DNA of 59,573 nucleotides from an uncultured Pseudomonadales bacterium (GCA_964430265.1 CAYSEI010000001.1:1-59573), one strand, 5' to 3'. Shown: positions 20,383-58,908, counted from the first letter of the stretch. The notes: generated by a model from the sequence alone, not told the origin. Made by a program: numbers and translations.

Positions 20383-20507
20383 AAATACAGTATAAATAAA
20401 AAATTATAAAATTTCTATAGTTTGTATTTTTTTAAATAGATTTTTAAAGTTTAACTAGGTTAAAATCCTCGAAATTGTATTATTTCAAGGAATATAAATC
20501 CTTGAAA

Positions 20508-20537
20508 TTGACAAATTACAAGGATTTAGTGTATAAT
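20508..20537 (+). promoter_or_regulatory. Sigma70-type promoter placing the TSS at or near the ATG of the ATPase gene
   Basis: TTGACA (20508-20513), 18-nt spacer, TATAAT (20532-20537). ATG at 20544, no Shine-Dalgarno between them. Confidence 0.5.
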
Positions 20538-20543
20538 TTACTT

Positions 20544-30345: not shown

Positions 30346-30417
30346 GGGCCCGTAGCTCAATGGTAGAGCAGTTGCCTCTTAAGCAATTGGTTGGGGGTTC
30401 AAGTCCTCCCGGGCTCA
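30346..30417 (+). tRNA. tRNA-Lys (anticodon CUU)
   Basis: Cloverleaf folded by hand: acceptor GGGCCCG/CGGGCUC (one G-U), D arm GCUC/GAGC, anticodon stem GUUGC/GCAAU, loop CU-CUU-AA, T arm GGGGG UUCAAGU CCUCC, discriminator A. CCA not encoded. Confidence 0.9.
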
Positions 30418-30424
30418 CAAGCCT

Positions 30425-30845: not shown

Positions 30846-31712
30846 GTGAACAAGAAAAAACTCTTTTATATCTGGATTATTCTACTTGCAGTTATCTGGT
30901 CAATTATTTTATCCTGGCCAAGACAAAATAATTTTGTTGCTTGTGATGTGGGGCAAGGGGATGCAATCCTTATATCCTCGGGATTTAACCAAGTTTTAAT
31001 TGATGGAGGACCCAACGACCAGGTTCTTAATTGTTTGTCAGAAAACATGCCCTTCTGGGACAGGAAGATTGAGATGGTGGTTAATACTCATCCGGACAAA
31101 GACCATTACTATGGGTTAGAAGAAGTTTTTAAAAGATATCAGGTGGAAAGTTTTGTTACCAACAACCTTATTAATCCTTCAGAATATTTCAAGGATTTCA
31201 GGCAGATTGTTTTGGAAAAAGAAGTAAAAATTATTACTCCAAGAAAGGGCGATATTTTAAAGATCAATGAGCTAGAATTTAAAATACTTTGGCCGGAAGA
31301 ACAGCAGAATGATTATTATGCATGGGATAAAGACTTAGAGTTTGATAAAAGAATTTTAGGTGAAAGAACAAAAGGATTTAACAATTCTTCAATTGTAATG
31401 CTTTTTTCTAAAAATGATTTTAATGGGCTTTTAACAGGGGATGTTGAAAGCGAGATTGAGGAAAAAATCGCTTCCGAAAATGAGATTGAGAAATTGGAGG
31501 TTTTAAAAATTGCCCATCACGGAAGCAAATATTCAACGTCCGAGCAATTTTTAAATCTGCTTAAACCCCAAGTTGCAATTATTTCTGTTGGTAAAAACCC
31601 CTGGGGGCATCCGACAAAAGAGGTTTTAGAAAGACTGGAAAAAAACAAAATTAAGATTTTACGAACAGATAAAGAAGAAATAAAAATCAATATGGATACA
31701 TTTATTAATTGA
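30846..31712 (+). CDS. Stand-alone ComEC-type metallo-beta-lactamase domain with its own N-terminal TM helix
   Basis: 288 aa. FVACDVGQGDAILISSGFNQVLIDGGPN and VNTHPDKDHYYG (ComEC MBL-type motifs), ...LKIAHHGSKYS. Confidence 0.75.
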   Translation: MNKKKLFYIWIILLAVIWSIILSWPRQNNFVACDVGQGDAILISSGFNQVLIDGGPNDQVLNCLSENMPFWDRKIEMVVNTHPDKDHYYGLEEVFKRYQVESFVTNNLINPSEYFKDFRQIVLEKEVKIITPRKGDILKINELEFKILWPEEQQNDYYAWDKDLEFDKRILGERTKGFNNSSIVMLFSKNDFNGLLTGDVESEIEEKIASENEIEKLEVLKIAHHGSKYSTSEQFLNLLKPQVAIISVGKNPWGHPTKEVLERLEKNKIKILRTDKEEIKINMDTFIN

Positions 31713-42955: not shown

Positions 42956-43438
42956 ATGAAAATGACAAAATTGGAACAATCTGTAGTTTTGTTAAAACCT
43001 GACGCCCTGCAAAGGGGACTGTTAGGAGAAATAATTGACCGCTTTGAGCAAAAGGGGCTTAAATTAATGGCCATGAAAATGATGGTTTTAAACAAAGAGC
43101 TTCTTGAAGACTGGTATGTACACCATAAGGAAAAACCGTTTTTTGATGACTTGGCCACATATATGAGCAGTTCGCCCGTAATTGCCATGATTTGGGAAGG
43201 CTTGGAATGCATTGCGACTGTAAGAAAACTTTGCGGAACTACAAAGGGATATGAAGCAGAGGCGGGTTCAATCCGGGGAGACTATTCAATTTCCGGGTCA
43301 CACAATATTATTCATGCTTCTGACTCTGTTGAATCTGCAGAAAAAGAGAAGGGTTTAATTTTTGATAAAGATGAAATTTTTGACTACAACAAAGCAGAAT
43401 ATCTTTGGATATATTCTGAAGAAGAAGTGGAAAGATAA
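42956..43438 (+). CDS. ndk: Nucleoside diphosphate kinase
   Basis: 160 aa. EQSVVLLKPDALQRGLLGEIIDRFEQKGLKL...NIIHASDS (catalytic His). Confidence 0.9.
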   Translation: MKMTKLEQSVVLLKPDALQRGLLGEIIDRFEQKGLKLMAMKMMVLNKELLEDWYVHHKEKPFFDDLATYMSSSPVIAMIWEGLECIATVRKLCGTTKGYEAEAGSIRGDYSISGSHNIIHASDSVESAEKEKGLIFDKDEIFDYNKAEYLWIYSEEEVER

Positions 43439-43530: not shown

Positions 43531-46500
43531 ATGGAAGATCAGCTTGAAAAAAATATTAAGCCCATTGAAAAAGAATCTTTTCCAACGGAACCTTCTGAAA
43601 GTTTGGATAAAAAAGTCAGTACGCGTGTTAAAGAACAAGAATCCCTTCCTGTATATTCTGTTTCAGAGAGTGAGAAAACAGCATCAAATTTGGATATCAA
43701 CAGTAGAATGGAGAAAAAACTATGGAGGATGGGTGAAGTTTTAGCACAAGAGCATCAATTCAGCCAAATGCTTGTAAAAGTAGGAAGAAAATTAGAACAG
43801 CCAGAAGATTGTCAGATTGTAGCCTTGGATTCAGCTTCTGCAGAAGCTTTTTATAGTAATCGTGACAACTTGGTTGTTTTTTCCCGCGGTTTGGCAAAAA
43901 AATTAATTAGCCAGGGAGTTGAATTAAAAGAAGACCACATTGCAGCAATTATCAGTCATGAATTGGAACATGAAGAAACAAACAAACGTTTAAATCCCGG
44001 TTTTGCATTTGATTTGAGCTACAAGAAAAAAATGCGGATGCAGAGTGAAGAAATGCGTGCGGATACAGAAGGAATGGAGAATATGGCAAGAGCCGGATAC
44101 AATCCCGAAGCAATGATAGACGTATATAAAGCAATCGGTTTAACTTCCGGACGTTATGGAACTAGTCATCCGGAAACAATTGACAGAATCCGTCATTTGG
44201 AAACCCGTTTGACTGATGATGAACATCCAATTCCAAGTGTTGGCAAAGAAATGACAGATGTTGATGAGGATTTAATAAAATACTTTACAGATGAAACACA
44301 GGTTTATCAAGAAAGCGAGAGGTTATGTTCTTTATCTGCAAATCAGCTTCAGGAAGAAATATTAGATACAGAATTCCAGGAAGAATTTTGGGCGCTTTAT
44401 CCAATGGAAAGACATGCACGCCGTGTTGAATACGGTAAAGCACTGGCAGGAGGAAATAGAGACTTACAAAGGTTGGTAAAAAAACAACTTCTTTTTCGCT
44501 TGCTTTCAACACGGAGTAGCGGTCATGGAGGCAGGGAAACCTGCCGTCTATTTATTGACGGCGAATTACAGCCGGAAATGGAAGGTGAGTTAATAAAAGA
44601 ATTGAGAGAAGAATCAGCCTTTATTACCCGTAGTGTGAAGAATAGCCACTTAGCATATATTTTTGATATGGAAACCGGATCCTCCCATTTTTTGAGAGCA
44701 ATGGATTACAGGGGAAATTTGCCAGAGGCGGATGTAGAGGATCCGGTAAAAGCAAGTTTTCAAGAAAGAATTGAAAAAGCAGAAGCTGCTTTGGACGAAA
44801 TTCTTTCTCGGCAGTTTGAAATTCTGGAAAAAAAACTTGCTGATGGAGAATTACCTGACTATTACAAGGCCCATCTGGAAAGGATAAAACAGGAATTAAA
44901 TAGCACAGCAGTAATTCCCTCAGCAGATGTAATGGCAAGTGCATTTGATTTTCTTGACAGGAGGGTAGTTGAAGATAATCTTAGAAAAGGAAATGAATTA
45001 AGACGGAAAAGGGGTCTCCGTTTGCAAGGACCTAATAAGAGCGACACAGTTGATTTTAATGACTTGGCTGAACGACAGCATGTTTTTAATGCTGCTTGCT
45101 TATCAACTGCAATATTTATGCTTGAGGAAATACCAGAAAACCAAATAACTTGGGCGCATTTAAATGAAGTTTTAGAAAATAGTACTGAATTGAGTGAAAT
45201 TGAAATAGAGCTTATTGCAGAGTATATATTTCATCAGAATGAGCAGGAATGGGTCAAATATTTGGGTTCTGTTGACCGTAAATATTTACCTGATTTGCAA
45301 AAAAAATTAAGAGCGGTTAAAGACGAAGGAGAAATAAGGCTTTCACCGAGAAAGTTGGGGGCGGGTCAAAGAATTTCCCTTTCTAAGTGCGATAGGATAG
45401 ATTCAATAAAAAATGAATTGCATTATAAATACGGTTACTTGCCCCATCCCTTTTCAGATGAAAGAGGAAAAAGAAACGCGTTAAGAGTACTAAGAGCAAT
45501 GCCGGCCTGGGAAATGTATAAGCGCTCTTGTCCTTTAAAAAATCAGGATGTGTTTAACAATCACTATTGGGACGGAGTGGGAATTTCAATGGATGCAGAC
45601 GAATTTGAATTTATATACTATACTTTGCAAAGAGATGGTAGTGATGTTTCCAATCTTAAAGTAAAGTATCAAATATGGTCTGGTGTCTTAAGAAAGGGAA
45701 TAGACAGGCTTAAACAAGGAGAACCCCTTTCCGAAGGCGAATTACAAATTATTAGTAGTATAAATAATTTTACCACTAATGGATTGCGTGATTACGGAAT
45801 TCCTTATCGGATTAGTTTTGAAGAAATGGATTTACTTTATGAAAATATTCCCTGGGTTGAAGGAGAAAGAGCTGTAAAGGTATTGGATTGGATTGAACAA
45901 GAATTTCGTTACGAACCAAAGGTTAAAGAACTTACTCCTGAACAGCAAAAACGCTTTGAAAAAATGCTTTTTGAGATATATGAAAATTATCCTGAATTGG
46001 AAGAAAGTTTTATAGAAGGAAGATATGTTCCTTATAGGGAACATAGGGCAAAAGACATGATCGCTGGATTTTTACTTAATCTTAAATTGCATGAAATCGG
46101 CTTTCCCAGGGAGTATCCGGAGGTGGAAATATCCCGGGAGGATGAGGAAGAAGTAATTAATGTTTTAAACGAGCTGGGGGAAAAAGGAATCAGAATATCC
46201 AACTTAGCTTGTATAAATTCTCCTGTACAGCTATTTTTTGAACAAGGAAGTGAGGAAAACTTACTCAGATTGGCTAATGATTTTGCTGATAAATCTGTTA
46301 TAGAAAATGAAAAACTTTCTTTTTCCGAAGCATTGAGGCTGGCAAGTGTTACTCCGGAAAGAAATGAAAGGTATAAGAAAAAAGACCTGCTTGCAGGTTT
46401 TTCTATTTATCCGGAAACAATTGACGAAATTTTTAAAGATAGGGGTTATGCAGAAGGAATTGATTGGGTGTTGAATAATTTTCATTCGTCTTCAATCAGG

Positions 46501-49002
46501 GATTTGCTTCTGGCTGGTTTAGCAGAGCAAATGACCGAGAGTCAAAAAGAAATAGTGGGTTTTGTTTTGCCGCACAGTTTTTCTGCAGAAGCAGTTAATG
46601 CCGGAAGGGGGAAAAACGCTTTTGACTATCAGGGTTATAATTCTGCCAAAAGATTAAATTCTAAAGGGAAGTATCAAGAGTTAGTTGATTTTTTTCAAGG
46701 GAAAGGAAGGTTGAAAGAAATTTTTCCTGATATTTTGGCTAGGAGGTATTCTTATGGGAGCCAAGCAAAGCCCGTAGATTCCGAAAGTGAACTTCCTAGG
46801 TTCATAAGTTCAGATTTTGAAGCAAGAAGAAGAGCTATTAAAGGTAATCCTGCTCAAAGATATTTTGGCAAAGAATTACTAAAAAAAGAAGATCGATTAT
46901 TTGATTTAGGAGTTGATCTAGATAAAAGAATAGGATTATTAACAGAAACAGCTCCGCACCATTCGCCTGTTCGGGATACTTATGTGGAATTTATGCTTAA
47001 AGACAGTTTTTCAGAAGCGGAAACAGCTGAAAAGAGGTATGAAGCAGCGTGTATATTAATGCCGCTTTTTTCCGAGGGATGTCAGTTTAAAGATCCGTAT
47101 AACCTGCAAATGTTGAGGGATGAGATAAGTTTGACAGCAGATTTTTACGCTGATCCGGAGGCTGCATTGCAAGTAGTTTTAAATTATCTTCCGGAGTCTG
47201 GTCTGGCAAGAAACTATTTTCTAGACCAAATTGAAGAAAGATCCTCTTTGACTCCCGATCAAATAGAAAAAATTATTAGTTTGCGTATTACAGAAGAAGG
47301 TCAGAGCAAAGGAGAAAAGGGGTACGAGGCTGGTCCGGGTCCTTTTGTAATGAATCTGCTTGCCGAGCAAAATCGGGAAGAAAAATGTAAAACTGTTTTA
47401 TGGTTGTTACAAGCTTCGGAAAAAAAACCTTTAGCTGTTGAAAAAACGGAACAAAATCAGGACGGCAGTTTGGACAGTTTTAAAAATATGTTTACCCAGT
47501 TAACTCCGCCTGAAAGGGAAGTTTTGCTTCGTAGGCTCTTTTTAGGGGCAGAGGGAATATTAGACTTGGAAGCAGTTTCTGATGAGTATTTAGGAGAAGC
47601 AGAGAAACTTAGGGATAATTTTTTAAAGTCTTTATCAGATCATTTTATTTCTGGAGAGACACAAAGCGAACAAGTTTTTCGTTCGATATTTAAAACCGTT
47701 TTTCAAAAGGCGGAACCGGCCAAAGCCGCTCATATGATGAATAATATTATTAATATTTCTTTAGAGCATATCCGGACTGGAGAGAGTTTTACTACTGCAG
47801 AATTAGTAGCCAGTTTCTTAAGTCAGATGGGGGTGGTTGGTAAAAAAGTTGCACAGTCTTTGTCCGAAATGGAATGGGTGCCAGAAAATTACAAAAAAGA
47901 ATTACATCGCAGTCAGGAAGAGGCAGAGAGCCTGCCTAAAAGAGCCTTGTATGTTTTTGCAGAAGCAGAGGGGTTATTAGAAGAAGATGCGGATATGCAG
48001 ATTGTTAGTTTTGACAAACTTTTGGGTGCGGCTTCTAATAAGCAGGCCTGTTTGTTGACGGTTAAGGTTGATACTCAAGAAAAAGCAGAAACATTGGGTG
48101 TAGAAGTAGGGCAGACAACCCAAGTTGTTGGTAAGTTTAAACGTCCTTCTGCACAAAAAGAAACTAATATTGAACATGACTTAGAGTTATTGACTGAGGT
48201 GGTAGAAACAATCCGTTCGTATGGGCAAGATATTAGTCTTCCACCGGGTTTTTCCGATCAGATAGGGATGGCAGTCAAGCAAGAATTGGACTTTAAAAGG
48301 GAAGAAAAATTTGCGCAAAAACTCCGTAATGATATTCAAAGGAGAAACAAGTATAAAGGCTATACAGTTGGGATTCCGCAGATTTTGTTTTCCTCTCAGG
48401 ATTTAGTTTTGGAAACCCGCGCATCAGGCATATCTGTACGTGAATTTATTGATCAAAAGATTTTGGGTTTGGGATCTGTTAATGCAGTTATTTTAAGAGA
48501 ATTTCTTGCAGAAATTTTATTGAGTGGGAATATTCAAGCAGATGGGCATCCGGGAAATATTTTTGTTAATGCGGAAAATAAAAAAATTACAATGATTGAT
48601 TTGGGTATGCATACTGGTCTGGAAAGTGAAAAGATAATTTATGCTAGAGAAATACTGATAGGCATAGCTTTAGGTAAAAAAAGTATTGTTCACAGGGCCT
48701 TAAGAAAATTTGATTGGGATATACCTAAGCAAGCTTTAGATTTTAAACCAGTAAGCTTTTTAGAAAATTCAAGGCTTTTACTTGCTGCCAGTAAGCAAGC
48801 ACAAACACCGCCGCCGCATGATTTAGGAATGGTAATCTTTGCTCTATCAAAACTATCACCTTATTTTAAAGGAGTTTCGCCGAAAGAGATTTTTACGATT
48901 ATTAAAGAATCAATACCGCCGTCTCAATGGCGCTTGCATGCGGAAATAATTGGAATTGAAGAAGGAGTTTCTGGATTAGAAAAAATAAGGAATAAAATAT
49001 AA
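43531..49002 (+). CDS. 1823-aa multidomain protein: N-terminal M48-type zinc peptidase domain, ~1300-aa helical middle, C-terminal ABC1/UbiB-like atypical kinase domain
   Basis: IISHELEHEETN (HExxH), EEMRADTEGMENMARAGYNPEAM, TSHPETIDRIRHLE (M48-type pattern). C-terminus: LLGAASNKQACLL, KFKRPSAQKETNIEHDLELL, QELDFKREEKFAQKL, IQADGHPGNIFV...ITMIDLGM (ABC1 pattern aaAS..QV / ELDF..E / HaDpHPGN / DFG). No signal peptide or TM noticed. Confidence 0.7.
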   Translation: MEDQLEKNIKPIEKESFPTEPSESLDKKVSTRVKEQESLPVYSVSESEKTASNLDINSRMEKKLWRMGEVLAQEHQFSQMLVKVGRKLEQPEDCQIVALDSASAEAFYSNRDNLVVFSRGLAKKLISQGVELKEDHIAAIISHELEHEETNKRLNPGFAFDLSYKKKMRMQSEEMRADTEGMENMARAGYNPEAMIDVYKAIGLTSGRYGTSHPETIDRIRHLETRLTDDEHPIPSVGKEMTDVDEDLIKYFTDETQVYQESERLCSLSANQLQEEILDTEFQEEFWALYPMERHARRVEYGKALAGGNRDLQRLVKKQLLFRLLSTRSSGHGGRETCRLFIDGELQPEMEGELIKELREESAFITRSVKNSHLAYIFDMETGSSHFLRAMDYRGNLPEADVEDPVKASFQERIEKAEAALDEILSRQFEILEKKLADGELPDYYKAHLERIKQELNSTAVIPSADVMASAFDFLDRRVVEDNLRKGNELRRKRGLRLQGPNKSDTVDFNDLAERQHVFNAACLSTAIFMLEEIPENQITWAHLNEVLENSTELSEIEIELIAEYIFHQNEQEWVKYLGSVDRKYLPDLQKKLRAVKDEGEIRLSPRKLGAGQRISLSKCDRIDSIKNELHYKYGYLPHPFSDERGKRNALRVLRAMPAWEMYKRSCPLKNQDVFNNHYWDGVGISMDADEFEFIYYTLQRDGSDVSNLKVKYQIWSGVLRKGIDRLKQGEPLSEGELQIISSINNFTTNGLRDYGIPYRISFEEMDLLYENIPWVEGERAVKVLDWIEQEFRYEPKVKELTPEQQKRFEKMLFEIYENYPELEESFIEGRYVPYREHRAKDMIAGFLLNLKLHEIGFPREYPEVEISREDEEEVINVLNELGEKGIRISNLACINSPVQLFFEQGSEENLLRLANDFADKSVIENEKLSFSEALRLASVTPERNERYKKKDLLAGFSIYPETIDEIFKDRGYAEGIDWVLNNFHSSSIRDLLLAGLAEQMTESQKEIVGFVLPHSFSAEAVNAGRGKNAFDYQGYNSAKRLNSKGKYQELVDFFQGKGRLKEIFPDILARRYSYGSQAKPVDSESELPRFISSDFEARRRAIKGNPAQRYFGKELLKKEDRLFDLGVDLDKRIGLLTETAPHHSPVRDTYVEFMLKDSFSEAETAEKRYEAACILMPLFSEGCQFKDPYNLQMLRDEISLTADFYADPEAALQVVLNYLPESGLARNYFLDQIEERSSLTPDQIEKIISLRITEEGQSKGEKGYEAGPGPFVMNLLAEQNREEKCKTVLWLLQASEKKPLAVEKTEQNQDGSLDSFKNMFTQLTPPEREVLLRRLFLGAEGILDLEAVSDEYLGEAEKLRDNFLKSLSDHFISGETQSEQVFRSIFKTVFQKAEPAKAAHMMNNIINISLEHIRTGESFTTAELVASFLSQMGVVGKKVAQSLSEMEWVPENYKKELHRSQEEAESLPKRALYVFAEAEGLLEEDADMQIVSFDKLLGAASNKQACLLTVKVDTQEKAETLGVEVGQTTQVVGKFKRPSAQKETNIEHDLELLTEVVETIRSYGQDISLPPGFSDQIGMAVKQELDFKREEKFAQKLRNDIQRRNKYKGYTVGIPQILFSSQDLVLETRASGISVREFIDQKILGLGSVNAVILREFLAEILLSGNIQADGHPGNIFVNAENKKITMIDLGMHTGLESEKIIYAREILIGIALGKKSIVHRALRKFDWDIPKQALDFKPVSFLENSRLLLAASKQAQTPPPHDLGMVIFALSKLSPYFKGVSPKEIFTIIKESIPPSQWRLHAEIIGIEEGVSGLEKIRNKI

Positions 49003-49108: not shown

Positions 49109-50218
49109 ATGACACCCGAAATTGATGTTCGCTCCATATTAATTGAAGAAGGCTTGATAGCGACCGACGGCTCTGACTATTCTTCTAATGAAATTTCTGA
49201 ACCCGAAGAATTGTTTTTAGAAGAACCGGAGAATGGAGACAACCATAGCAACACTAGGCTGGAAGACACAGAATTGTCCTGTATTAATTTAATGATACAC
49301 GGTAAAAGCGAATTCTATAAGGGCAGGCTATTGACCCGAGAAGAAGAAGCAAGCTTGGGAAGAAGGATCCAGGCGGGAATAAGAGCGGAAAGGATTTTGC
49401 AAAGAAACAGCCATCTCTTAGAAGAAAAGCAAACAAAAGGATTGGAAAATGTGATTGAAATAGGAGGGAAAGCTGTTAAAGAATTAGCGGCAAACAATAT
49501 TGGCTTAGTAGTAAATATTGCAGGAAGATATAAGCATTATCAGGAAGAGAGGGGATTGAAGTTTGCCGACGTTATTGAAAACGGACATATAGGTCTTATG
49601 ATTGCAACAAGAAAATTTGATCCTGAAAAAGGGAACAAATTTTCTACTTATGCAACCTGGTGGATTAGAAACTCAATTAACAGAGAATTCAGAAATACCA
49701 GCAGTACGGTTCGTATTCCCTACAACATGCATACACAATTAAGAAAATATTTGCAAACACTTCGAGAATTGTTTCCTGAAGGAGAAGTAGATGAAGAAGC
49801 TTTAAGACAAGAAATGGGATTGACTAAAAGAGAAATAAAATCTAGGAGGCAAGCGCTTAAAATGCTGAGAGTGGAAAGTTTAAATGAACCGATTAATGAA
49901 GATAAGGATTCAGATGAATTTGGTGATTTTATTGAAGACAGGACAAACAGATTTCCAGATCCGGAACAAAATGCAATTAGCAGTTTGATGGAGGAAGATG
50001 TTAAAAGTGCTTTACTAGACATTGACCCACGCTCAGCAAGGATTATTAGGATGAGGTACGGAATGGACAAATACGAACCGCACACTTTAGGAGAAGTAGG
50101 AGATAAATTGGGATTGACTAGAGAGAGAATCAGGCAATTAGAAGCAAAAGGTTTGAGAGAATTAAGACATCCAAGAATTAAAAGAAAACTCAAAGGCTAT
50201 ATTGAAAATTTAAATTAA
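49109..50218 (+). CDS. Sigma-70 family factor (RpoD-like, divergent N-terminus)
   Basis: 369 aa. Region 2: FADVIENGHIGLMIATRKFDPEKGNKFSTYATWWIRNSINREF. Region 4: TLGEVGDKLGLTRERIRQLEAKGLRELR. Confidence 0.8.
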   Translation: MTPEIDVRSILIEEGLIATDGSDYSSNEISEPEELFLEEPENGDNHSNTRLEDTELSCINLMIHGKSEFYKGRLLTREEEASLGRRIQAGIRAERILQRNSHLLEEKQTKGLENVIEIGGKAVKELAANNIGLVVNIAGRYKHYQEERGLKFADVIENGHIGLMIATRKFDPEKGNKFSTYATWWIRNSINREFRNTSSTVRIPYNMHTQLRKYLQTLRELFPEGEVDEEALRQEMGLTKREIKSRRQALKMLRVESLNEPINEDKDSDEFGDFIEDRTNRFPDPEQNAISSLMEEDVKSALLDIDPRSARIIRMRYGMDKYEPHTLGEVGDKLGLTRERIRQLEAKGLRELRHPRIKRKLKGYIENLN

Positions 50219-50270: not shown

Positions 50271-51287
50271 GTGCTAGAAAAAGAAGAGTTTTTAACTAAC
50301 CAGAACATGGATAAAGGAAATAAAATTAATCCTCTAGAAAATATTAACCCGCACAATACTGTAAGTTTGTATTTAAAAGAGATTGAGCAGATCCCTTTAT
50401 TAGAACACAAACAAGAACTGCAGCTGGCAAGACAGATTCAAAATGGAGAAAAAGCAAAAAAAGATTTAGATAATAGTGAAGTACAGCTTACAGATGATGA
50501 AATTTTGGAACTAAAGTTAAGAAAAGCAATCGGTGATCAGGCAGTAAATATTTTGGTTAGACATAATTTAAGACTAGTAGTAGCTGAAGCAAAAAAACGC
50601 CGGGGAGAAGGTATTCCTTTTTTAGACCTAATACAGGAAGGTAATATTGGTCTGCAAAAAGCCGCCAGAAAGTTTGATCCGGAGAAAGGATACATGTTTT
50701 CTACTTATGCAACATGTTGGATAAAAGGAGAGATTGGGAGGGGAATAGACAGGCAGTCCAGGAAAATTAGGATACCGGTGCATGCAAGAGATGAAATACA
50801 GAGGATGTATAGAGTAATATCTCGTTTAGAGCAGAAAAGCGGCCAAAAACCCTCTAATGAAGAACTTGCAAAAGAATTAGGTTGGAATGAAGAAAGGGTA
50901 AAAGACAGAAAAAAACAAAGCCAAGGTGTTATATCTTTGGACAGACCTTTAGGCGAAGCAGCAGATGCGGAATTATTTGGGGATGTTCTTGAAGATCAAT
51001 ATGCAACTGATCCGCAAAAATTGATGGAAACAAGAAGTGAGATTAGAGAGATTCTTACACTTGTAAACCGCTTAAAAGAAAATTATAGAAAAGTAATTGA
51101 GTACAGATATGGAATATTTGATGGAGAATACCGTACGCAGAAGGAAGTGGGAGATATACTTGGATTATCAAAACAAAGGATAAGCCAGATAGAAAAGGCG
51201 GCTAAAGAAAGGATTGTTTTTTGGATAAAAAAATTAGCAAGAGAAGCAAGAAAAAAGAGGAATTTAAAATATGAGTGCAGAAAGTGA
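50271..51287 (+). CDS. Sigma-70 family factor (RpoD-like, with canonical region 1.2)
   Basis: 338 aa from GTG (AGGTGGTGA SD upstream). VSLYLKEIEQIPLLEHKQELQLARQIQNGE. FLDLIQEGNIGLQKAARKFDPEKGYMFSTYATCWIKGEIGR. TQKEVGDILGLSKQRISQIEKAA. Confidence 0.8.
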   Translation: MLEKEEFLTNQNMDKGNKINPLENINPHNTVSLYLKEIEQIPLLEHKQELQLARQIQNGEKAKKDLDNSEVQLTDDEILELKLRKAIGDQAVNILVRHNLRLVVAEAKKRRGEGIPFLDLIQEGNIGLQKAARKFDPEKGYMFSTYATCWIKGEIGRGIDRQSRKIRIPVHARDEIQRMYRVISRLEQKSGQKPSNEELAKELGWNEERVKDRKKQSQGVISLDRPLGEAADAELFGDVLEDQYATDPQKLMETRSEIREILTLVNRLKENYRKVIEYRYGIFDGEYRTQKEVGDILGLSKQRISQIEKAAKERIVFWIKKLAREARKKRNLKYECRK

Positions 51288-52299: not shown

Positions 52300-52713
52300 T
52301 TAAGGCTCCAGGCGTTTTAAAAACTTAAACCTATCAAAATCTTTATCATAAGAATAGATTTGTTTAATCTTGTTGTTTTTTATCCAGGCAGCGCTGAGAG
52401 CGACTTCAAAATCAATATTTTCTTCAGAGTAAATTTTCAATGCTTGTAAAAACGTATTTTTAAAGTCTATTTTTAGTCCGGGAATATTGATTATTGGAAG
52501 AAGTAGATCATAAATTTTTTTTCTTTTAAGATTGTAAAGCTTTTTAGAAGAGAGGATATAAACAACTTCTGACAAAACAGATTCACTAGTAGTTAATATA
52601 ATTTCTTTTTTATCCGCTTTTTTAAATAGATTTAGGCATTTTTCTGCTTTTTGTTTATCGTCTGCTGTCAACAGGCGGATGAAAATATTAGTATCAACAA
52701 ACTTAGCCGGCAT
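52300..52713 (-). CDS. vapC: PIN-domain toxin (VapC-like)
   Basis: Preferred start MPAKFVDTNIFIRLL (Asp in DTN). Later acidic residues ...SESVLSEV..., ...YSYDKDFD. The track ORF is extended upstream to 52794. Confidence 0.7.
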   Translation of the reverse strand: MPAKFVDTNIFIRLLTADDKQKAEKCLNLFKKADKKEIILTTSESVLSEVVYILSSKKLYNLKRKKIYDLLLPIINIPGLKIDFKNTFLQALKIYSEENIDFEVALSAAWIKNNKIKQIYSYDKDFDRFKFLKRLEP

Positions 52714-52957
52714 TTTCCAGCCTTTCTTCTCGAGCAGTTTTTCTTTGTTCTGAAAAGCTTTTATTAATTGGTTTGACTGCGCCAAAAACTTCATCCAAAG
52801 AATATTTTGGTGTTTTAATAATTGCTTTCTGATCAGAGATAAACTTGATTATTACTTTTTTCTGTTTATCCAAACCAAGTTTTTTCCTAATTTTTATAGG
52901 GATGGTAATTTGACCCTTTTGGCTAACGGGAACAGTATATGTATTGCTTCTAACCAT
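52703..52957 (-). CDS. vapB: AbrB/SpoVT-fold antitoxin (VapB-like)
   Basis: 84 aa. VPVSQKGQITIPIKIRKKLGL. Overlaps the vapC start by 11 nt. Confidence 0.7.
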   Translation of the reverse strand: MVRSNTYTVPVSQKGQITIPIKIRKKLGLDKQKKVIIKFISDQKAIIKTPKYSLDEVFGAVKPINKSFSEQRKTAREERLENAG

Positions 52958-53016
52958 AATAAGTAAAGAATATCATAAAAGTAAAGAAAAAACAAGAAGT
53001 TTTACATTTAAATTTG

Positions 53017-53090
53017 TCGGGGTGTCGAGACTTGAACTCGAAACCTCTGGCTCCCGATGCCAGCGCGCTACCAAGTTGCGCCACACCCCG
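53017..53090 (-). tRNA. tRNA-Pro (anticodon CGG)
   Basis: Reverse complement: CGGGGUG UG GCGC AACUUGGUA GCGC G CUGGC AU-CGG-GA GCCAG AGGUU UCGAG UUCAAGU CUCGA CACCCCG A. Confidence 0.9.
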
Positions 53091-53110
53091 GATAAATAAA
53101 GATAATTTTG

Positions 53111-53183
53111 TACTCCTACCAGGAATTGAACCTGGATCTGTCGCTTAGGAGGCGACTGCTCTATCCGTTTGAGCTATAGGAGC
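53111..53183 (-). tRNA. tRNA-Arg (anticodon CCU)
   Basis: Reverse complement: GCUCCUA UA GCUC AAACGGAUA GAGC A GUCGC CU-CCU-AA GCGAC AGAU CCAGG UUCAAUU CCUGG UAGGAGU A. Confidence 0.9.
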
Positions 53184-56086: not shown

Positions 56087-56851
56087 ATGAAAAAACAAAA
56101 CAGGGGTAAGGAACAAATAAAAATCAACGGAGTCAAAATTAATTTTGTTCCTCTCAAAAAAGTACTTAAGCAGGTTTCAACTTGGTCAAAGTATAACAAA
56201 AAGCATCACATCACTACGCCCAATCCAGAGCAGATTATTATTGCACAAGAGGACAGGGAGTTTAAAAGGATAATTAATGACTCGGATTTATCAATTCCGG
56301 ACGGAATAGGTTTGGTTTTAACGGCAAGACTTAAAAATGGACTGTTTAATCCTTTATACAAAAGATTAAGCGGAGTAGATCTAATGCTTGCTTTGTGTGA
56401 TTTGGCAGAAAAAGAAAATTTAAAGGTTTTTTTGCTTGGCGGAAAAAATAATGTGGTCCAAAAAGCAAAAAAACAGTTGGAATTAAGCAACAAAGATTTG
56501 CAGGTTGGATATTTTAATGGTGCAGAGGAGATAAAAAAGGAAACAAAAAAAGAAAAAGCGATAACTATTAGGAAAATAAATGAGTTTAAACCAGATTTTC
56601 TTTTTGTTGCCTATGGAGCTCCGTTCCAGGAGAAATGGATTGCAGATAATTTAAAGGATTTGAATGTAAAGATTGCGATGGGAGTAGGTGGTGCATTTGA
56701 CTATATTGCCGGAAATATTAAGCGGGCGCCAGTTTGGGTAAGGAGAATAGGAATGGAATGGTTGTGGCGGCTTTTTTTACAGCCTTGGCGCTGGAAAAGG
56801 CAATTAAGATTGATTAGTTTTGTTAAACTATTCTTTCTGGATTCCCAGTAG
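56087..56851 (+). CDS. WecG/TagA/CpsF-family (GT26) glycosyltransferase
   Basis: 254 aa. HITTPNPEQIIIAQEDREFKRIINDSDLSIPDGIGLVL...APFQEKWI. Confidence 0.75.
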   Translation: MKKQNRGKEQIKINGVKINFVPLKKVLKQVSTWSKYNKKHHITTPNPEQIIIAQEDREFKRIINDSDLSIPDGIGLVLTARLKNGLFNPLYKRLSGVDLMLALCDLAEKENLKVFLLGGKNNVVQKAKKQLELSNKDLQVGYFNGAEEIKKETKKEKAITIRKINEFKPDFLFVAYGAPFQEKWIADNLKDLNVKIAMGVGGAFDYIAGNIKRAPVWVRRIGMEWLWRLFLQPWRWKRQLRLISFVKLFFLDSQ

Positions 56852-57322
56852 CCAAAGAACTGCTTCTTTTCGGTATCTTCTGTCTCCGCGTGAGTTAATC
56901 CTGATAGCAGGCAGCTTACCGCGCTTGCCCCAGCGCTTTACTGTCAGGGGTGAAACACGTAAGAGGTCGGCTACCTCGCGGACCGTTAACAAATCAGGTA
57001 GATTATCTAAAGAAACATCTTCTTCTTGTTTTTTTTGCGGGTAGCTTGTTTTTTGTCTGCTTTGTGTTTGTTCTTCATTAGCTTCTTCTTTTCTTTCTTT
57101 ATCAATCATCCCTTTTTCTTTTAAAAGCCATTCTACTGCCTCTTTACGATATCTTCTATCTCCGCGTGAGTTTATTCTGATAGCAGGAAGCTTGCCGCGC
57201 TTGCCCCAGCGTTTAATAGTAAGGGGAGTGACCCTAAAAAGTTCAGCAACTTCTTCAACTGTGAGTAAATCCGGAAGGTTGTCCAAAGAAACTTTGTTTT
57301 CGGAAGTGTTTTTTTGATTCAT
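56828..57322 (-). CDS. Tandem excisionase/MerR-type HTH protein (two near-identical DNA-binding repeats)
   Basis: 164 aa. VSLDNLPDLLTVEEVAELFRVTPLTIKRWGKRGKLPAIRINSRGDRRYRKEAVEWLL and VSLDNLPDLLTVREVADLLRVSPLTVKRWGKRGKLPAIRINSRGDRRYRKEAVLWLL, joined by an acidic/basic linker. Confidence 0.7.
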   Translation of the reverse strand: MNQKNTSENKVSLDNLPDLLTVEEVAELFRVTPLTIKRWGKRGKLPAIRINSRGDRRYRKEAVEWLLKEKGMIDKERKEEANEEQTQSRQKTSYPQKKQEEDVSLDNLPDLLTVREVADLLRVSPLTVKRWGKRGKLPAIRINSRGDRRYRKEAVLWLLGIQKE

Positions 57323-57602
57323 TACTTTATCCTTTGTTATATTTAGTATTTAAAAAAGTAGGTTAATATCCATCACAATATTAACTTTCATATATTAAAT
57401 CTATCACAGTGGTAAAAAACGTGTCAATAGTTAAAATTTGTTTTGACAAAAATATAATATGTTTATATGTCTAGTAATAAGATTTTGAATAATGGTATTA
57501 GTTGGATAAATAGTGGTTTAATTAAACATTTATTAAAATGAGAAAGAATGTAAAAAAGGAAAGAAAATATATATAGAAGTAAAAGTTTGAAGTAAATTGA
57601 GT

Positions 57603-57631
57603 AGAAAAATCCCACCCAAAAGGGTGGGATT
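57603..57631 (-). terminator. Intrinsic terminator after rplL
   Basis: Minus strand: AATCCCACCC TTTT GGGTGGGATT TTTCT. 10-bp stem, about 26 nt after the rplL stop. Confidence 0.75.
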
Positions 57632-57657
57632 CTAATACTTTTTACAATCTAAAAGAA

Positions 57658-58185
57658 TTACTTAAGAGTTACTGTAGCACCTGCTTCTTCTAAAACCTTT
57701 TTAGCTTCTTCAGCTTCTTCTTTTTCAGCTTTTTCAAGGATAATTTTAGGAGCACCTTCAACTAAGTCTTTAGCGTCTTTGAGCCCTAAACCTTGTTTTA
57801 CTTGTCTTACAGCTTTAATAACTGCGATTTTATTGCCGCCTGCGCCAGTCAACTCAACATCGTATTCGCTTTTTTCTTCAGCTTCTTCAGCTCCATTTCC
57901 GCCTGCTGCTTCTGCTGCTGGTGCAGCCATTTGCATAGCGCTTGCTGAAACACCGAACTTTTCTTCCAAAGCTTCTACGAGTTCAGAAAGTTCCAAAACT
58001 GAAAGTTCACTGATCTGGTCAATAATTTTTTCCAGTTTTTTTGAAACCTCAGGAGCTTTTTCTTCAGTTTTAGCTTCTTTTTTTGCTGGTTTTTTTTCAG
58101 TTTTTTTCTGCTCTTTTTTCTCGGTCTTTTTTACTTCCTTTTTCTCTTCTTTCTTTTTTGTATCTTTTTCTTTTTTCTTTGCCAT
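57658..58185 (-). CDS. rplL: Ribosomal protein L7/L12 with a ~48-aa Lys/Glu-rich N-terminal extension
   Basis: 175 aa. Core [19 protein letters not shown]...[31 protein letters not shown]...[10 protein letters not shown]. Extension [46 protein letters not shown]. Strong SD AGAGGAGGTGA 7 nt before the ATG at 58185. No in-frame ATG/GTG/TTG lies at the canonical position. Confidence 0.9.
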
Positions 58186-58227
58186 TTGTATTCACCTCCT
58201 CTTTTTATAAGTTAAAATATTTTCTAT

Positions 58228-58752
58228 TTAGTTAGCTGCTTTTGATTCTTTGATTTGTGATAGGACAACTGTCAGGTTTCTTAAATTTCCGTTTAAGGTA
58301 TTAACCAATCCGGATAGGGGAGAAGCAATCATTCCTACGGCTTTTGCTTGTAATTGTTCCAAACCCGGAAGCTGGGCTAATTTGATTGCCCGGTCCTTGT
58401 TAAGAAATTGCTTGTCTAAAAAGCCGGCTTTTAATTGAAGTTTTTCCTTATCTGTATCTTCTTTAAAGTTCCAAAGTGTTTTTAAGGGCTGGATTTCGTC
58501 TTCGTAAGCAAAAAGAGCAGCTGTGGGTCCGGAAAGTACTTTTTCAATCTCTGTTGAATCTTTTCCCAGCGCCAGTTTTATTAAGGAATTCTTGGCGACT
58601 TTGAAATCTCCGCCAGCCTCAACAATTTTTGAGCGGAGTTGGTTAATTTCGGAAACTGAGAGTCCGGAATAGTCACTGAAAAATACACTTTTGGCTTTTT
58701 TCAGCTTTTCTTTAAGTTCTTCTAATTGTTTGATATTTTTCTGACTTGGCAT
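58228..58752 (-). CDS. rplJ: Ribosomal protein L10
   Basis: 174 aa. Position directly upstream of rplL. ...VFFSDYSGLSVSEINQLRSKI... Confidence 0.85.
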   Translation of the reverse strand: MPSQKNIKQLEELKEKLKKAKSVFFSDYSGLSVSEINQLRSKIVEAGGDFKVAKNSLIKLALGKDSTEIEKVLSGPTAALFAYEDEIQPLKTLWNFKEDTDKEKLQLKAGFLDKQFLNKDRAIKLAQLPGLEQLQAKAVGMIASPLSGLVNTLNGNLRNLTVVLSQIKESKAAN

Positions 58753-58908
58753 TTTTTCCCTTTCTTAAAAACAAAAAAGCACTCCGAGGAGTGCTAAATA
58801 TATTAATTTAATTCACTTTTCTCCTCGGTAGGATTTATGTTTGCTTATTTACAAACACCTACTTTCTTAGGTTGAGTATATTTTACATCTCTGCTATATT
58901 AAAATCAA
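58753..58908 (-). promoter_or_regulatory. rplJ promoter plus leader with terminator/antiterminator alternative (L10-leader-like attenuator)
   Basis: Minus strand: TTGATT (58908-58903), 17-nt spacer, TAAAAT (58885-58880). Leader hairpin AGCACUC-CUCG-GAGUGCU followed by UUUUUUGUUUUU (58795-58766), immediately before SD AAGGGA and the ATG. Upstream CCGAGGAG (within ...AAUCCUACCGAGGAGAAAAG...) is complementary to CUCCUCGG of that hairpin. Confidence 0.5.

What the first reader, a model, noticed from the sequence alone, without database searches (positions are those of the whole stretch)
43531..49002. 1823-aa fusion of an M48-type metallopeptidase and an ABC1/UbiB-like atypical kinase
Residues of about 90-230 carry HELEH, E-x-x-AD and HP-x-x-x-x-R motifs in M48 order. 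The last ~330 residues carry the ABC1/UbiB signature set (AAS..Q, K.KRP, ELDF..E, HPGN, IDLG). About 1300 residues of unassigned helical sequence lie between them.

I saw no signal peptide or TM helix, although canonical M48 and UbiB proteins are membrane-associated. UbiB/ABC1 proteins are linked to quinone and lipid homeostasis, which reduced-genome CPR-like bacteria are generally thought to lack. I do not know this fusion architecture from characterised proteins. It could be a large regulatory hub or a secreted effector. It is immediately followed by two sigma-factor genes.
Basis: partly seen in the sequence, partly recalled or inferred. Interest (0 to 1): 0.7.

Follow-up and report, generated by a model that had tools for sequence, protein, structure and literature searches.

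The report
Giant M48 protease–UbiB kinase fusion protein
This is a real 1823-residue cytoplasmic protein, conserved in candidate-phyla (CPR) bacteria, that joins an intact BepA-like zinc protease to an intact UbiB/COQ8-like ATPase/kinase through about 1,100 residues of helical scaffold; the domains are known but the architecture and its function are undescribed.

Summary
Window 43531-49002 (+) is one uninterrupted 1823-codon ORF. It has a Pfam Peptidase_M48 match at the N-terminus and an ABC1/UbiB match at the C-terminus, and no TM helix or signal peptide.

It is not an assembly artefact. An exhaustive HMMER search with only the unassigned middle found 38 other representatives, most 1700-1900 aa. 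Every full-length one tested carries both end domains. Genome hits are labelled Roizmanbacteria, Daviesbacteria, WS6, Peribacteria and Peregrinibacteria.

Across 23 members at about 25-30% identity, all M48 zinc and catalytic residues are invariant, including the BepA "histidine-switch" His. The UbiB nucleotide and catalytic residues are invariant or at least 90% conserved.

AlphaFold2 models and Foldseek give:
- a BepA/3C37-like minigluzincin;
- about 700 residues of alpha-solenoid with no significant match;
- a conserved 370-residue helical module modelled together with a COQ8A/Rv3197-like domain.

Gene neighbourhood, including the two sigma genes, is not conserved.

My best reading, which is inferred, is a self-contained client-specific latent protease whose gating is coupled to the UbiB ATPase/kinase. 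I rate it a new variant of known kinds, of moderate interest.

The parts
43531..49002 (+). Whole gene: 1823-aa M48-solenoid-UbiB fusion protein, stop codon included
   Evidence: Single ORF. Same architecture in 38 other representatives.
43531..43686 (+). Residues 1-52: acidic, polar N-terminal tail predicted disordered; not a signal peptide
   Evidence: pLDDT below 50. Only 15% identity and 63% alignment coverage across the family. No hydrophobic stretch.
43696..44520 (+). Residues 56-330: BepA-like/minigluzincin M48 zinc-peptidase domain plus a conserved helical extension
   Evidence: Pfam PF01435. pLDDT mostly above 90. Foldseek 3c37 TM 0.57 and BepA 6ait. Family profile against PDB sequences: 3c37 E 8e-10, BepA 5e-4.
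43957..43971 (+). H143-E-L-E-H147: HExxH zinc-binding and general-base motif
   Evidence: H143, E144 and H147 are present in 23 of 23 family members.
44050..44064 (+). E174-x-x-A177-D178: helix carrying the third zinc ligand (Glu)
   Evidence: E174 and D178 in 23/23, A177 in 22/23. Aligns with EYENQAD of 3c37.
44167..44187 (+). H213-P214-x4-R219: equivalent of BepA His-246 / 3C37 His-208, the 'histidine switch' fourth zinc ligand
   Evidence: H213, P214 and R219 in 23/23. H213 aligns with 3c37 residue 208. Role of that His in BepA: bioRxiv 10.1101/2020.07.07.192476.
44521..46650 (+). Residues 331-1040: poorly conserved all-alpha (solenoid-like) scaffold, with a disordered loop at 621-647
   Evidence: No Pfam hit. 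All helices, pLDDT mostly 70-90. Only non-significant solenoid matches in PDB. 15.5% identity across the family.
46651..47760 (+). Residues 1041-1410: conserved helical 'pre-kinase' module. Motifs: DLLxRR 1067-1072, VRDIYLE 1147-1153, YLPxxSLARNYFL 1219-1231, LWL..KP 1291-1300, LGxEGILDL 1337-1345
   Evidence: 29.5% identity across the family. Near-invariant residues listed. pLDDT about 90 in a 784-residue model with pTM 0.84 that also contains the kinase domain. No PDB match. Also present in shorter ABC1-only relatives P0028 and P0029.
47761..48810 (+). Residues 1411-1760: UbiB/ABC1/COQ8-like atypical kinase-fold (ATPase) domain
   Evidence: PF03109. TIGR01982 partial match 1410-1715. Foldseek COQ8A 5i35/4ped/7udq with target-normalised TM 0.68-0.73, plus Rv3197 and MSMEG_1954. 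Profile against PDB: Rv3197 E 3e-10.
47845..47856 (+). K1439-V-A-Q1442: KxGQ-type motif, with Ala or Ser in place of Gly in most members
   Evidence: K in 22/23, Q in 23/23. The third position is A in 16, S in 5, D in 1 and L in 1, and is never G. Role of the Gln in COQ8: bioRxiv 10.1101/149823.
48025..48048 (+). G1499-A-A-S-N-K-Q-A1506: Ala-rich nucleotide-binding loop
   Evidence: A1501 in 23/23; G1499, S1502 and Q1505 in 22/23; K1504 in 21/23.
48133..48135 (+). K1535 (in VGKFKRP): ATP-binding lysine
   Evidence: K in 22/23. Aligns with the VAVKIQYP lysine of Rv3197.
48283..48303 (+). E1585-L-D1587 ... E1591: ExD motif and alpha-C glutamate
   Evidence: E1585 in 23/23, E1591 in 22/23. Aligns with E-C-D-Y-K-R-E of COQ8B.
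48541..48558 (+). D1671-G-H-P-G-N1676: catalytic loop
   Evidence: D1671 and N1676 in 23/23.
48598..48606 (+). D1690-L-G1692: metal-binding Asp (DFG equivalent)
   Evidence: D1690 and G1692 in 23/23.

Best explanation
**Shown.** The gene encodes a soluble cytoplasmic multidomain enzyme, possibly peripherally membrane-associated. It belongs to a rare, conserved family found in candidate-phyla (CPR/Patescibacteria-type) genomes. It has four parts:
1. A BepA/3C37-type M48 minigluzincin. Its zinc ligands, catalytic Glu and the conserved His that autoinhibits BepA are all invariant.
2. About 700 residues of fast-evolving alpha-solenoid.
3. A conserved 370-residue helical module.
4. A UbiB/COQ8-fold domain with a complete ATP-binding and catalytic residue set.

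The family keeps both active sites under strong purifying selection and has no conserved gene partner.

**Inferred.** The protein is a self-contained machine for regulated proteolysis.
- The solenoid captures one or a few specific clients, as the TPR domain does for BepA.
- The M48 site rests latent, with H213 on the zinc.
- ATP binding or hydrolysis by the UbiB half, or phosphorylation by it, drives or licenses the change that displaces H213. The client is then cleaved.

The UbiB half is expected to be an ATPase like COQ8 and Rv3197 rather than a conventional protein kinase. It is not an orthologue of quinone-pathway UbiB.
For: **One gene, both domains.** Single ORF with both Pfam domains above their cut-offs.

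**A family with the same layout.**
- A search with the middle region alone returned 38 other representatives (E up to 1e-3). Of all 39 listed hits, 25 have E up to 1e-30, and most are 1700-1900 aa.
- M48 plus ABC1 was confirmed in P0003, P0004, P0005, P0009, P0010, P0038 and in loci L002 and L009.
- Nine GTDB species genomes carry it. Seven are labelled Roizmanbacteria, Daviesbacteria, WS6, Peribacteria or Peregrinibacteria.

**Active-site conservation in 23 members at 16-31% identity to the query.**
- M48: H143, E144, H147, E174, D178, H213, P214 and R219 are invariant.
- UbiB: Q1442, A1501, E1585, D1671, N1676, D1690 and G1692 are invariant. K1439, K1535 and E1591 are present in 22 of 23.

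**Histidine switch.** H213 aligns with 3C37 His-208. That residue corresponds to BepA His-246, the fourth zinc ligand whose removal activates BepA (bioRxiv 10.1101/2020.07.07.192476).

**Structure.**
- Model of 1040-1823: pLDDT 88, pTM 0.84. It matches COQ8A at TM 0.68-0.73, and also Rv3197 and MSMEG_1954.
- Model of 1-1100: pLDDT 75. It matches 3c37 and BepA. Beyond the protease domain there are only weak solenoid matches.

**Precedents.**
- BepA is an M48 domain plus a helical-repeat client-binding domain.
- COQ8 and E. coli UbiB are ATPases, and the KxGQ Gln holds the candidate attacking water (bioRxiv 10.1101/149823).
- Rv3197 is a soluble UbiB-fold ATPase without TM segments (PMC6208485).

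**Stand-alone gene.** No neighbour is conserved across the family. Only the nearest relative, L092, shares a few nearby genes with the window.
Against: - Coupling between the two ends is inference only. No full-length model could be made (1200-residue limit), so there is no evidence that the domains touch.
- No client is known.
- The KxGQ glycine is replaced by Ala or Ser in 21 of 23 members and by Asp or Leu in the other two. In COQ8, KxGQ-domain and A-rich-loop mutations shift the balance between ATPase and autophosphorylation, so the chemistry may differ.
- A plant family member, ABC1K6, is reported as a Mn2+-dependent kinase (PMC8956952). Phosphotransfer to protein therefore cannot be excluded.
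- UbiB proteins are otherwise tied to prenyl lipids, which favours the lipid-centred rival.
- Shorter relatives (P0028, P0029) have the pre-kinase module and ABC1 domain without a detectable M48. The kinase half can therefore exist on its own.
Confidence: 0.45

Rival explanations
1. A lipid-centred hub. The UbiB half handles a hydrophobic, prenyl-type or scavenged membrane lipid, as COQ8/UbiB and plastoglobule ABC1Ks are thought to do. The M48 half trims proteins at the same lipid surface. This would be a fused version of the ABC1K-PGM48 pairing seen on plastoglobules and cyanoglobules. The protein would work peripherally on the membrane.
For: - Plastoglobule and Synechocystis cyanoglobule core proteomes contain several ABC1Ks together with one M48 peptidase, PGM48/sll1280 (PMC12223511; PMC8956952).
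- COQ8 ATPase is activated by cardiolipin-containing membranes and phenolic CoQ-like compounds, and binds membrane through the KxGQ domain (bioRxiv 10.1101/149823).
- Isoprenoid-type genes lie within 10 kb of some members: two CrtI-like amine oxidases in L010, a UbiA prenyltransferase in L011 and a weak SQS_PSY hit in L092.
Against: - No TM or strongly hydrophobic segment.
- The protein is strongly acidic: E+D 16.9% against K+R 13.2%.
- The isoprenoid neighbours occur in only 3 of 13 loci, differ in kind, and none is in the window.
- The domain scores far below the UbiB equivalog cut-off.
- Whether the PGM48 and ABC1K co-localisation reflects direct coupling is not established in the papers read.
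Confidence: 0.2
2. A signalling kinase/protease that controls the two downstream sigma-70 factors, for example by phosphorylating or cleaving a sigma or anti-sigma factor.
For: Two sigma-70 genes start 107 nt and 1.27 kb after the stop codon, on the same strand.
Against: - No sigma gene flanks any of the 13 related loci examined, including the closest relative L092.
- UbiB-family proteins have not been shown to phosphorylate proteins in trans, except in limited plant reports.
- The promoter and terminator scan was uninformative.
Confidence: 0.05
3. A small-molecule (for example antibiotic) binding ATPase like Mycobacterium Rv3197/MABP-1, with the large helical parts forming a ligand-binding accessory domain and the M48 domain acting as an add-on.
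For: Rv3197 and MSMEG_1954 are the best PDB sequence matches of the family profile (E 3e-10 and 6e-8) and are soluble ATPases (PMC6208485).
Against: - This does not explain an invariant, complete protease active site 1,300 residues away.
- The similarity is limited to the kinase fold.
- The helical regions have no match to the Rv3197 accessory domain beyond the KxGQ-type helices.
Confidence: 0.05
4. A secreted or injected effector/toxin acting on a host cell of an episymbiotic CPR bacterium.
For: Large size, fast-evolving solenoid middle and occurrence in CPR lineages thought to be symbionts.
Against: - No signal peptide or TM segment.
- No secretion-system genes adjacent.
- No PADLOC or phage matches.
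- The closest relative has the gene embedded in the nusG-rplKA ... rplJL housekeeping cluster.
Confidence: 0.04
5. An artificial fusion created by a frameshift, mis-assembly or missed stop codon joining two genes.
For: In the closest relative (L092) the gene is called as two ORFs, a 613-aa M48 part and a 1177-aa ABC1 part.
Against: - The same full-length architecture occurs in more than 20 independent assemblies from different sources.
- The L092 split is a 1-nt frame change at a C5 run. Homology to the window protein continues across it: HPF before, AWEMY after. The split form, not the fused form, is therefore the derived or erroneous one.
- Composition is even along the ORF.
Confidence: 0.01

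Closest known systems
COQ8A/ADCK3, Coq8p and E. coli UbiB (UbiB/ABC1 atypical kinase-like ATPases)
   Same: - Same fold: Foldseek target-normalised TM 0.68-0.73.
- Pfam PF03109 match.
- A-rich loop, ATP-binding Lys, ExD motif, alpha-C Glu, catalytic-loop Asp and Asn, and metal-binding Asp are all present and conserved.
- The KxGQ Lys and Gln are kept.
   Different: - Only about 16-18% identity in structural alignment.
- 72.5 bits against the 487.55-bit UbiB equivalog cut-off.
- The Gly of KxGQ is Ala or Ser in 21 of 23 members and never Gly.
- No TM anchor.
- Preceded by a 370-residue conserved helical module and fused to a protease.
- Occurs in lineages not known to make quinones (that last point is from general knowledge and was not tested here).
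Mycobacterium tuberculosis Rv3197 (MABP-1) and M. smegmatis MSMEG_1954 (soluble bacterial ABC1 proteins)
   Same: - Best PDB sequence matches of the family profile (E 3e-10 and 6e-8).
- Soluble, with no TM segment.
- UbiB fold with helical accessory parts.
- Measured ATPase activity (PMC6208485).
   Different: - About 450 aa, homodimeric, with no protease domain and no solenoid.
- Function tied to macrolide binding.
E. coli BepA and Geobacter Q74D82 (PDB 6AIT, 3C37): M48 minigluzincins with a histidine switch
   Same: - Best structural and sequence matches for residues 56-230.
- HExxH, the Glu ligand and the switch His are conserved.
- In BepA the protease is likewise followed by a helical-repeat (TPR) client-binding domain.
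   Different: - BepA is periplasmic, about 490 aa, and works at the BAM complex.
- Here there is no signal peptide and no TPR Pfam match. The helical region is about 1,100 residues and ends in an ATPase/kinase domain.
Plastoglobule/cyanoglobule pair: ABC1K kinases plus the M48 peptidase PGM48 (sll1280)
   Same: The same two protein families are found together on one cellular structure (PMC12223511, PMC8956952). The fusion here is the kind of 'Rosetta stone' that would predict a functional link between them.
   Different: - They are separate proteins on a lipid droplet in phototrophs.
FtsH (AAA+ ATPase fused to an M41 zinc protease)
   Same: Analogy only: one polypeptide combines a nucleotide-hydrolysing domain with an HExxH zinc protease for regulated proteolysis.
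   Different: The folds of both domains are unrelated. FtsH is a membrane-anchored hexameric unfoldase. There is no evidence that a UbiB domain can unfold or translocate substrates.

Membership tests
Peptidase family M48 (Pfam PF01435; gluzincin/minigluzincin) | Profile match above the curated threshold | tested here: met
   40.5 bits against a cut-off of 20.3, E 3.4e-10. On residues 1-330 alone: 46.2 bits.
Peptidase family M48 (Pfam PF01435; gluzincin/minigluzincin) | HExxH motif plus a downstream Glu as third zinc ligand (E-x-x-A-D helix) | tested here: met
   H143, E144, H147, E174 and D178 are present and invariant in 23/23 members. They align with 3c37.
Peptidase family M48 (Pfam PF01435; gluzincin/minigluzincin) | Conserved His of the C-terminal HPxxxxR motif (BepA His-246 equivalent) | tested here: met
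   H213 aligns with 3c37 His-208 and is invariant. Equivalence of His-208 and His-246.
Peptidase family M48 (Pfam PF01435; gluzincin/minigluzincin) | Minigluzincin fold | tested here: met
   AF2 model has pLDDT above 90 over most of 56-330. Foldseek 3c37: probability 1.0, TM 0.57, E 1.5e-3. BepA 6ait: probability 0.95.
Peptidase family M48 (Pfam PF01435; gluzincin/minigluzincin) | Zinc-dependent endopeptidase activity | not testable with these tools
   Needs a biochemical assay.
UbiB/ABC1/ADCK atypical kinase family (Pfam PF03109) | Profile match above the curated threshold | tested here: met
   73.1 bits against a cut-off of 22.9, E 2.5e-20.
UbiB/ABC1/ADCK atypical kinase family (Pfam PF03109) | Invariant KxGQ motif in the N-terminal helical extension | tested here: inconclusive
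   The motif is K1439-V-A-Q1442. K is in 22/23 and Q in 23/23. The Gly position is A in 16, S in 5, D in 1 and L in 1, and is never G.
UbiB/ABC1/ADCK atypical kinase family (Pfam PF03109) | Ala-rich loop in place of the Gly-rich loop, ATP-binding Lys, alpha-C Glu, catalytic-loop D..N, metal-binding Asp | tested here: met
   GAASNKQA 1499-1506, K1535, E1585/E1591, D1671, N1676 and D1690 are all invariant or at least 90% conserved.
UbiB/ABC1/ADCK atypical kinase family (Pfam PF03109) | COQ8A-type fold | tested here: met
   Foldseek 5i35, 4ped, 7udq: E 7.5e-11 to 5e-9, target-normalised TM 0.68-0.73. The model has pLDDT 88.
UbiB proper (TIGR01982 / PRK04750 equivalogs; quinone-pathway UbiB) | Score above the equivalog cut-off over the full model length | tested here: not met
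   72.5 bits against 487.55, and 33.1 against 667. It is a superfamily member, not a UbiB orthologue.
UbiB proper (TIGR01982 / PRK04750 equivalogs; quinone-pathway UbiB) | Membrane anchoring and occurrence alongside quinone biosynthesis genes | tested here: not met
   No TM helix. No ubi or men genes in the window or the related loci. Whole genomes were not examined.
BepA-type proteases (M48 + TPR, periplasmic) | Signal peptide and a TPR domain recognisable by profile | tested here: not met
   No signal peptide. No TPR or other repeat family above noise in 231-1409. Only the protease core is BepA-like.

The most novel reading that the evidence does not exclude
The fusion is a Rosetta stone showing that M48 peptidases and UbiB/ABC1 ATPases form an ancient functional pair. 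The UbiB domain would be a nucleotide-driven switch that licenses a histidine-latched M48 protease. Its core job would then be independent of quinone biosynthesis. That would reinterpret the unexplained co-residence of ABC1Ks with PGM48 on plastoglobules and cyanoglobules, and would give the poorly understood UbiB family a quinone-free model system.
Probability: 0.2. Interest if true: 0.75.

Novelty: new variant of a known kind. Interest (0 to 1): 0.55.

Why it matters
- **UbiB biochemistry.** UbiB/ABC1/COQ8 proteins are ancient, widespread and linked to human disease, yet their biochemical role is still debated: ATPase, lipid extraction or kinase. This family places a catalytically complete UbiB domain in organisms not expected to make quinones and welds it to a complete protease. 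That offers a natural experiment on what the UbiB fold does apart from CoQ biosynthesis.
- **A testable link.** It also suggests a functional connection between M48 peptidases and ABC1 proteins.
- **CPR biology.** For CPR bacteria, it adds a large, conserved, housekeeping-looking enzyme of unknown role to genomes that are otherwise minimal.
- **If only an ordinary protease.** If it proves to be just a client-specific quality-control protease with an ATPase regulator, it is a modest addition to known domain architectures.

Tried and rejected
**Searches that returned nothing useful**
- The search for homologous proteins with the full-length protein and with the 23-sequence alignment returned only the query itself. 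The word pre-filter was swamped. With residues 1040-1823 it found only 6 relatives.
- The search for related loci in genome contigs with the single protein found nothing. A 7-sequence alignment worked.
- The metagenome scan was dominated by the generic HADxHPGN pattern of ordinary UbiB genes. It added only one true member, L012.
- The look-up of encoding contigs for the window protein: not on record.
- Pfam on four overlapping pieces of the middle region gave only noise, E at least 0.086.
- PADLOC and phage tblastn: no matches.
- The promoter and terminator scan gave no promoter excess and only a weak terminator excess, 9 against 4.5 ± 2.3.
- Literature searches for UbiB with Patescibacteria or CPR found nothing relevant.

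**Hypotheses tested and rejected**
- Conserved operon partners (sigma factors, NDK, M16 peptidase): no synteny.
- A natural split into two genes in L092: rejected as a 1-nt frameshift at a C5 run.

**Not attempted**
- Comparison with the PGM48/sll1280 sequences, which were not available.
Full report
**1. The observation**

Window 43531-49002 (+) is a single ATG-initiated ORF of 1823 codons. GC and GC3 are even along it.

- M48 set: HELEH 143-147, E174-MR-A-D178, H213-P-ETID-R219.
- ABC1 set: AASNKQ 1500-1505, KFKRP 1535-1539, ELDFKREE 1585-1592, HPGN 1673-1676, IDLG 1689-1692.

Profile searches confirm both ends.
- Pfam ABC1 (PF03109): E 2.5e-20, 73 bits against a cut-off of 22.9.
- Peptidase_M48 (PF01435): E 3.4e-10, 40.5 bits against a cut-off of 20.3.
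- NCBIfam gives only a partial, far sub-threshold match to the UbiB equivalogs: 72.5 bits against 487.55. The domain belongs to the UbiB/ABC1 superfamily but is not an orthologue of quinone-pathway UbiB.

The most hydrophobic 19-residue window scores 1.42 on the Kyte-Doolittle scale. The N-terminus is acidic and polar. There is therefore no TM helix or signal peptide. Residues 231-1409 have no Pfam match above noise.

**2. It is a family, not an accident**

An exhaustive HMMER search of 1.84 billion representative proteins, using only the unassigned middle (231-1409), returned 39 hits (38 besides the query itself). Twenty-five have E up to 1e-30, and most are 1700-1900 aa long.

Members carry M48 at the N-terminus and ABC1 at the C-terminus.
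- P0003, P0004, P0005, P0009 and P0010.
- P0038.
- The genes in loci L002 and L009.
- A motif scan finds HExxH near residue 115-190 in every full-length (>1700 aa) member except P0011, where a long N-terminal extension puts it at 862. It finds HPGN near 1580-1765 in most of them.

Pattern scanning of one genome per GTDB species found nine loci. Seven are labelled Roizmanbacteria, Daviesbacteria, WS6, Peribacteria (three) or Peregrinibacteria. Two are labelled 'uncultured Gammaproteobacteria'; these are automated bins and the labels were not verified.

The only source name recovered is the generic 'AarF/UbiB family protein' (MDD5415825.1). Text searches found no paper on this architecture.

The family is rare. 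JGI metagenome scanning added one further full-length member.

**3. Both active sites are conserved**

The evidence is an alignment of 23 full-length members at 16-31% identity to the query.
- Invariant in the M48 domain: H143, E144, H147, E174, D178, H213, P214, R219.
- Invariant in the UbiB domain: Q1442, A1501, E1585, D1671, N1676, D1690, G1692.
- Present in 22 of 23: K1439, K1535, E1591.

These are the three zinc ligands and general base of a gluzincin. On the other side they are the nucleotide-binding and catalytic residues of a UbiB domain: KxGQ Lys and Gln, A-rich loop, ATP lysine, ExD and alpha-C Glu, catalytic-loop Asp and Asn, and metal-binding Asp.

One family-specific twist is the Gly of the 'invariant' KxGQ motif. 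It is Ala in 16 members, Ser in 5, Asp in 1 and Leu in 1, and never Gly.

Regional identity to the query:

| Region | Residues | Identity |
|---|---|---|
| M48 | 56-330 | 30% |
| Middle | 331-1040 | 15.5% |
| Pre-kinase module | 1041-1410 | 29.5% |
| Kinase domain | 1411-1760 | 38% |

**4. Structure**

*C-terminal model, residues 1040-1823.* AlphaFold2 with the family alignment gives pLDDT 88 and pTM 0.84. An all-helical module (1040 to about 1410) is modelled with the kinase-like domain at high overall confidence. Foldseek against the PDB matches about 400 residues to:
- COQ8A/ADCK3 (5i35, 4ped, 7udq): E 7.5e-11 to 5e-9, target-normalised TM 0.68-0.73;
- Rv3197 and MSMEG_1954.

The helical module has no match.

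*N-terminal model, residues 1-1100.* pLDDT is 75 and pTM 0.67.
- Residues 1-52 are disordered.
- Residues 56-330 form a confident alpha/beta protease domain.
- Residues 340-1020 are all-alpha, with a disordered loop at 621-647.

Foldseek finds the soluble Geobacter M48 peptidase 3C37 (TM 0.57, probability 1.0) and E. coli BepA (6AIT). Otherwise there are only non-significant alpha-solenoid matches: importins, CAND1 and PPR proteins.

*Family profile against PDB sequences.* This agrees with the fold searches:

| PDB protein | E-value |
|---|---|
| Rv3197 | 3e-10 |
| 3C37 | 8e-10 |
| MSMEG_1954 | 6e-8 |
| COQ8A | 1e-4 |
| BepA | 5e-4 |

Nothing matched the middle region.

**5. The histidine switch**

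In the phmmer alignment, the query's SHPETIDRI aligns with THPLTSERI of 3C37, placing H213 on 3C37 residue 208. The BepA study states that 3C37 His-208 corresponds to BepA His-246. That residue binds the zinc as a fourth ligand, excludes the catalytic water and keeps BepA latent. Its mutation or loop deletion raises protease activity. The residue is conserved across M48 (bioRxiv 10.1101/2020.07.07.192476).

H213 is invariant in this family. BepA also follows its M48 domain with a helical-repeat (TPR) domain that binds partners and substrate. The N-terminal half here follows the same logic.

**6. Genomic context**

In the window the gene sits between NDK (42956-43438), with an M16 peptidase further upstream, and two sigma-70 genes. 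None of these neighbours recurs next to relatives (tblastn; annotated contexts).

The closest relative is L092, at 42% identity over the C-terminal half. It shares rplJ, rplL and a MerR-like gene within about 10 kb, as in window 56.8-58.8 kb. That is simply residual synteny of related genomes.

In L092 the gene is called as two ORFs, P0006 (613 aa, M48) and P0002 (1177 aa, ABC1). The two frames differ by one base at a C5 run. Homology to the window protein continues across the break...HPF... before and ...AWEMY... after. It is therefore a frameshift or sequencing error, not an ancestral split.

Variants exist.
- An ORF with about 990 extra N-terminal residues in L002.
- A 2447-aa member, P0011.
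- An ORF of at least 4081 codons in L009.
- Shorter relatives of about 1200 aa that keep the pre-kinase module and ABC1 domain but have no detectable M48.

**7. How it most likely works**

*Shown:*
- a soluble four-part protein;
- two catalytically complete domains under purifying selection;
- a latch His;
- a fast-evolving solenoid;
- a conserved helical module attached to the UbiB domain;
- no obligatory gene partner.

*From the literature:*
- COQ8 and E. coli UbiB are ATPases. The KxGQ Gln holds the probable attacking water, and ATPase activity rather than autophosphorylation tracks with function (bioRxiv 10.1101/149823).
- Rv3197 is a soluble UbiB-fold ATPase (PMC6208485).

*Inferred:*
- The solenoid recruits a specific client.
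- The M48 site is latent through H213.
- The nucleotide state of the UbiB half, or a phosphorylation by it, gates release of the latch.

I put about 0.45 on this overall reading. The domain identities themselves are above 0.9.

The main rival (0.2) is a lipid-surface role like the ABC1K plus PGM48 set of plastoglobules and cyanoglobules (PMC12223511, PMC8956952). It has faint support from isoprenoid-type genes near three members.

The remaining readings are weak or refuted:
- sigma-factor control;
- antibiotic binding like Rv3197;
- a secreted effector;
- an artefactual fusion.

**8. Novelty and verdict**

Both catalytic domains belong to known families. The membership tests are met, except for the KxGQ glycine and the UbiB equivalog threshold.

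What is new:
- the conserved fusion;
- about 1,100 residues of uncharacterised helical scaffold;
- occurrence in CPR-type lineages.

I rate it a new variant of known kinds, with moderate interest (0.55). Interest would be higher if the M48-UbiB coupling proves real, because it would give the enigmatic UbiB family a quinone-independent, testable function.

Noticed in passing
window 2-8773 (-): One stop-free frame of at least 2924 codons runs off the left end of the window, so the ORF listing does not list it. GC is about 0.41 against about 0.35 elsewhere. It has no Pfam hit. It shows weak similarity (24% over 1322 aa, E 1.7e-13) to the giant ORF immediately downstream of the family member in the Peribacteria locus L002.
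   Followed up: partly
window 49109-50218 and 50271-51287 (+): Two tandem sigma-70 family genes. The first has no region 3 hit; the second has regions 1.2, 2, 3 and 4. The adjacency to the fusion gene is not conserved in relatives.
   Followed up: partly
L092 8900-9000: In the closest relative the fusion gene is broken into two called genes, P0006 and P0002, by a 1-nt frame change at a C5 homopolymer. This is either a sequencing error or a recent frameshift.
   Followed up: yes
L009 5140-17382; L002 3040-11079; protein P0011: Extended variants of the family. L009 has an ORF of at least 4081 codons that continues more than 2000 codons past the kinase domain. L002 has a 2679-aa form with about 990 extra N-terminal residues. 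P0011 is a 2447-aa member with HExxH at residue 862.
   Followed up: partly
L004 and L009: Two genome records carrying family members are labelled 'uncultured Gammaproteobacteria' (automated co-assembly bins), while all the others are CPR lineages. This may be mislabelling or mis-binning.
   Followed up: no
L010 1628-4476; L011 10125-11069; L092 15886-16737: Isoprenoid-type genes lie within 10 kb of three family members: two CrtI-like amine oxidases, a UbiA prenyltransferase, and a weak squalene/phytoene synthase hit. This is too sparse to call an association.
   Followed up: no
window 29112-30257 and 30846-31712 (+), with tRNA-Lys at 30346-30418: The two halves of a ComEC-like protein (Competence domain and metallo-beta-lactamase domain) are separate ORFs with a tRNA-Lys gene between them.
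   Followed up: no
window 20475-21665 (+): An AAA_14/DUF4143 ATPase gene has a 40%-identical homologue just upstream of the family member in L009. This is probably a coincidence involving a widespread gene.
   Followed up: no
window 56828-58889 (-): An L10 leader (Rfam RF00557, 58764-58889) precedes rplJ (58228-58752) and rplL (57658-58185). A MerR/HTH-like ORF (56828-57322) is 76% identical to one in L092.
   Followed up: partly
window 52300-52794 (-) and 53016-53183 (-): A stand-alone PIN-domain gene lies next to tRNA-Pro and tRNA-Arg. No antitoxin partner was looked for.
   Followed up: no
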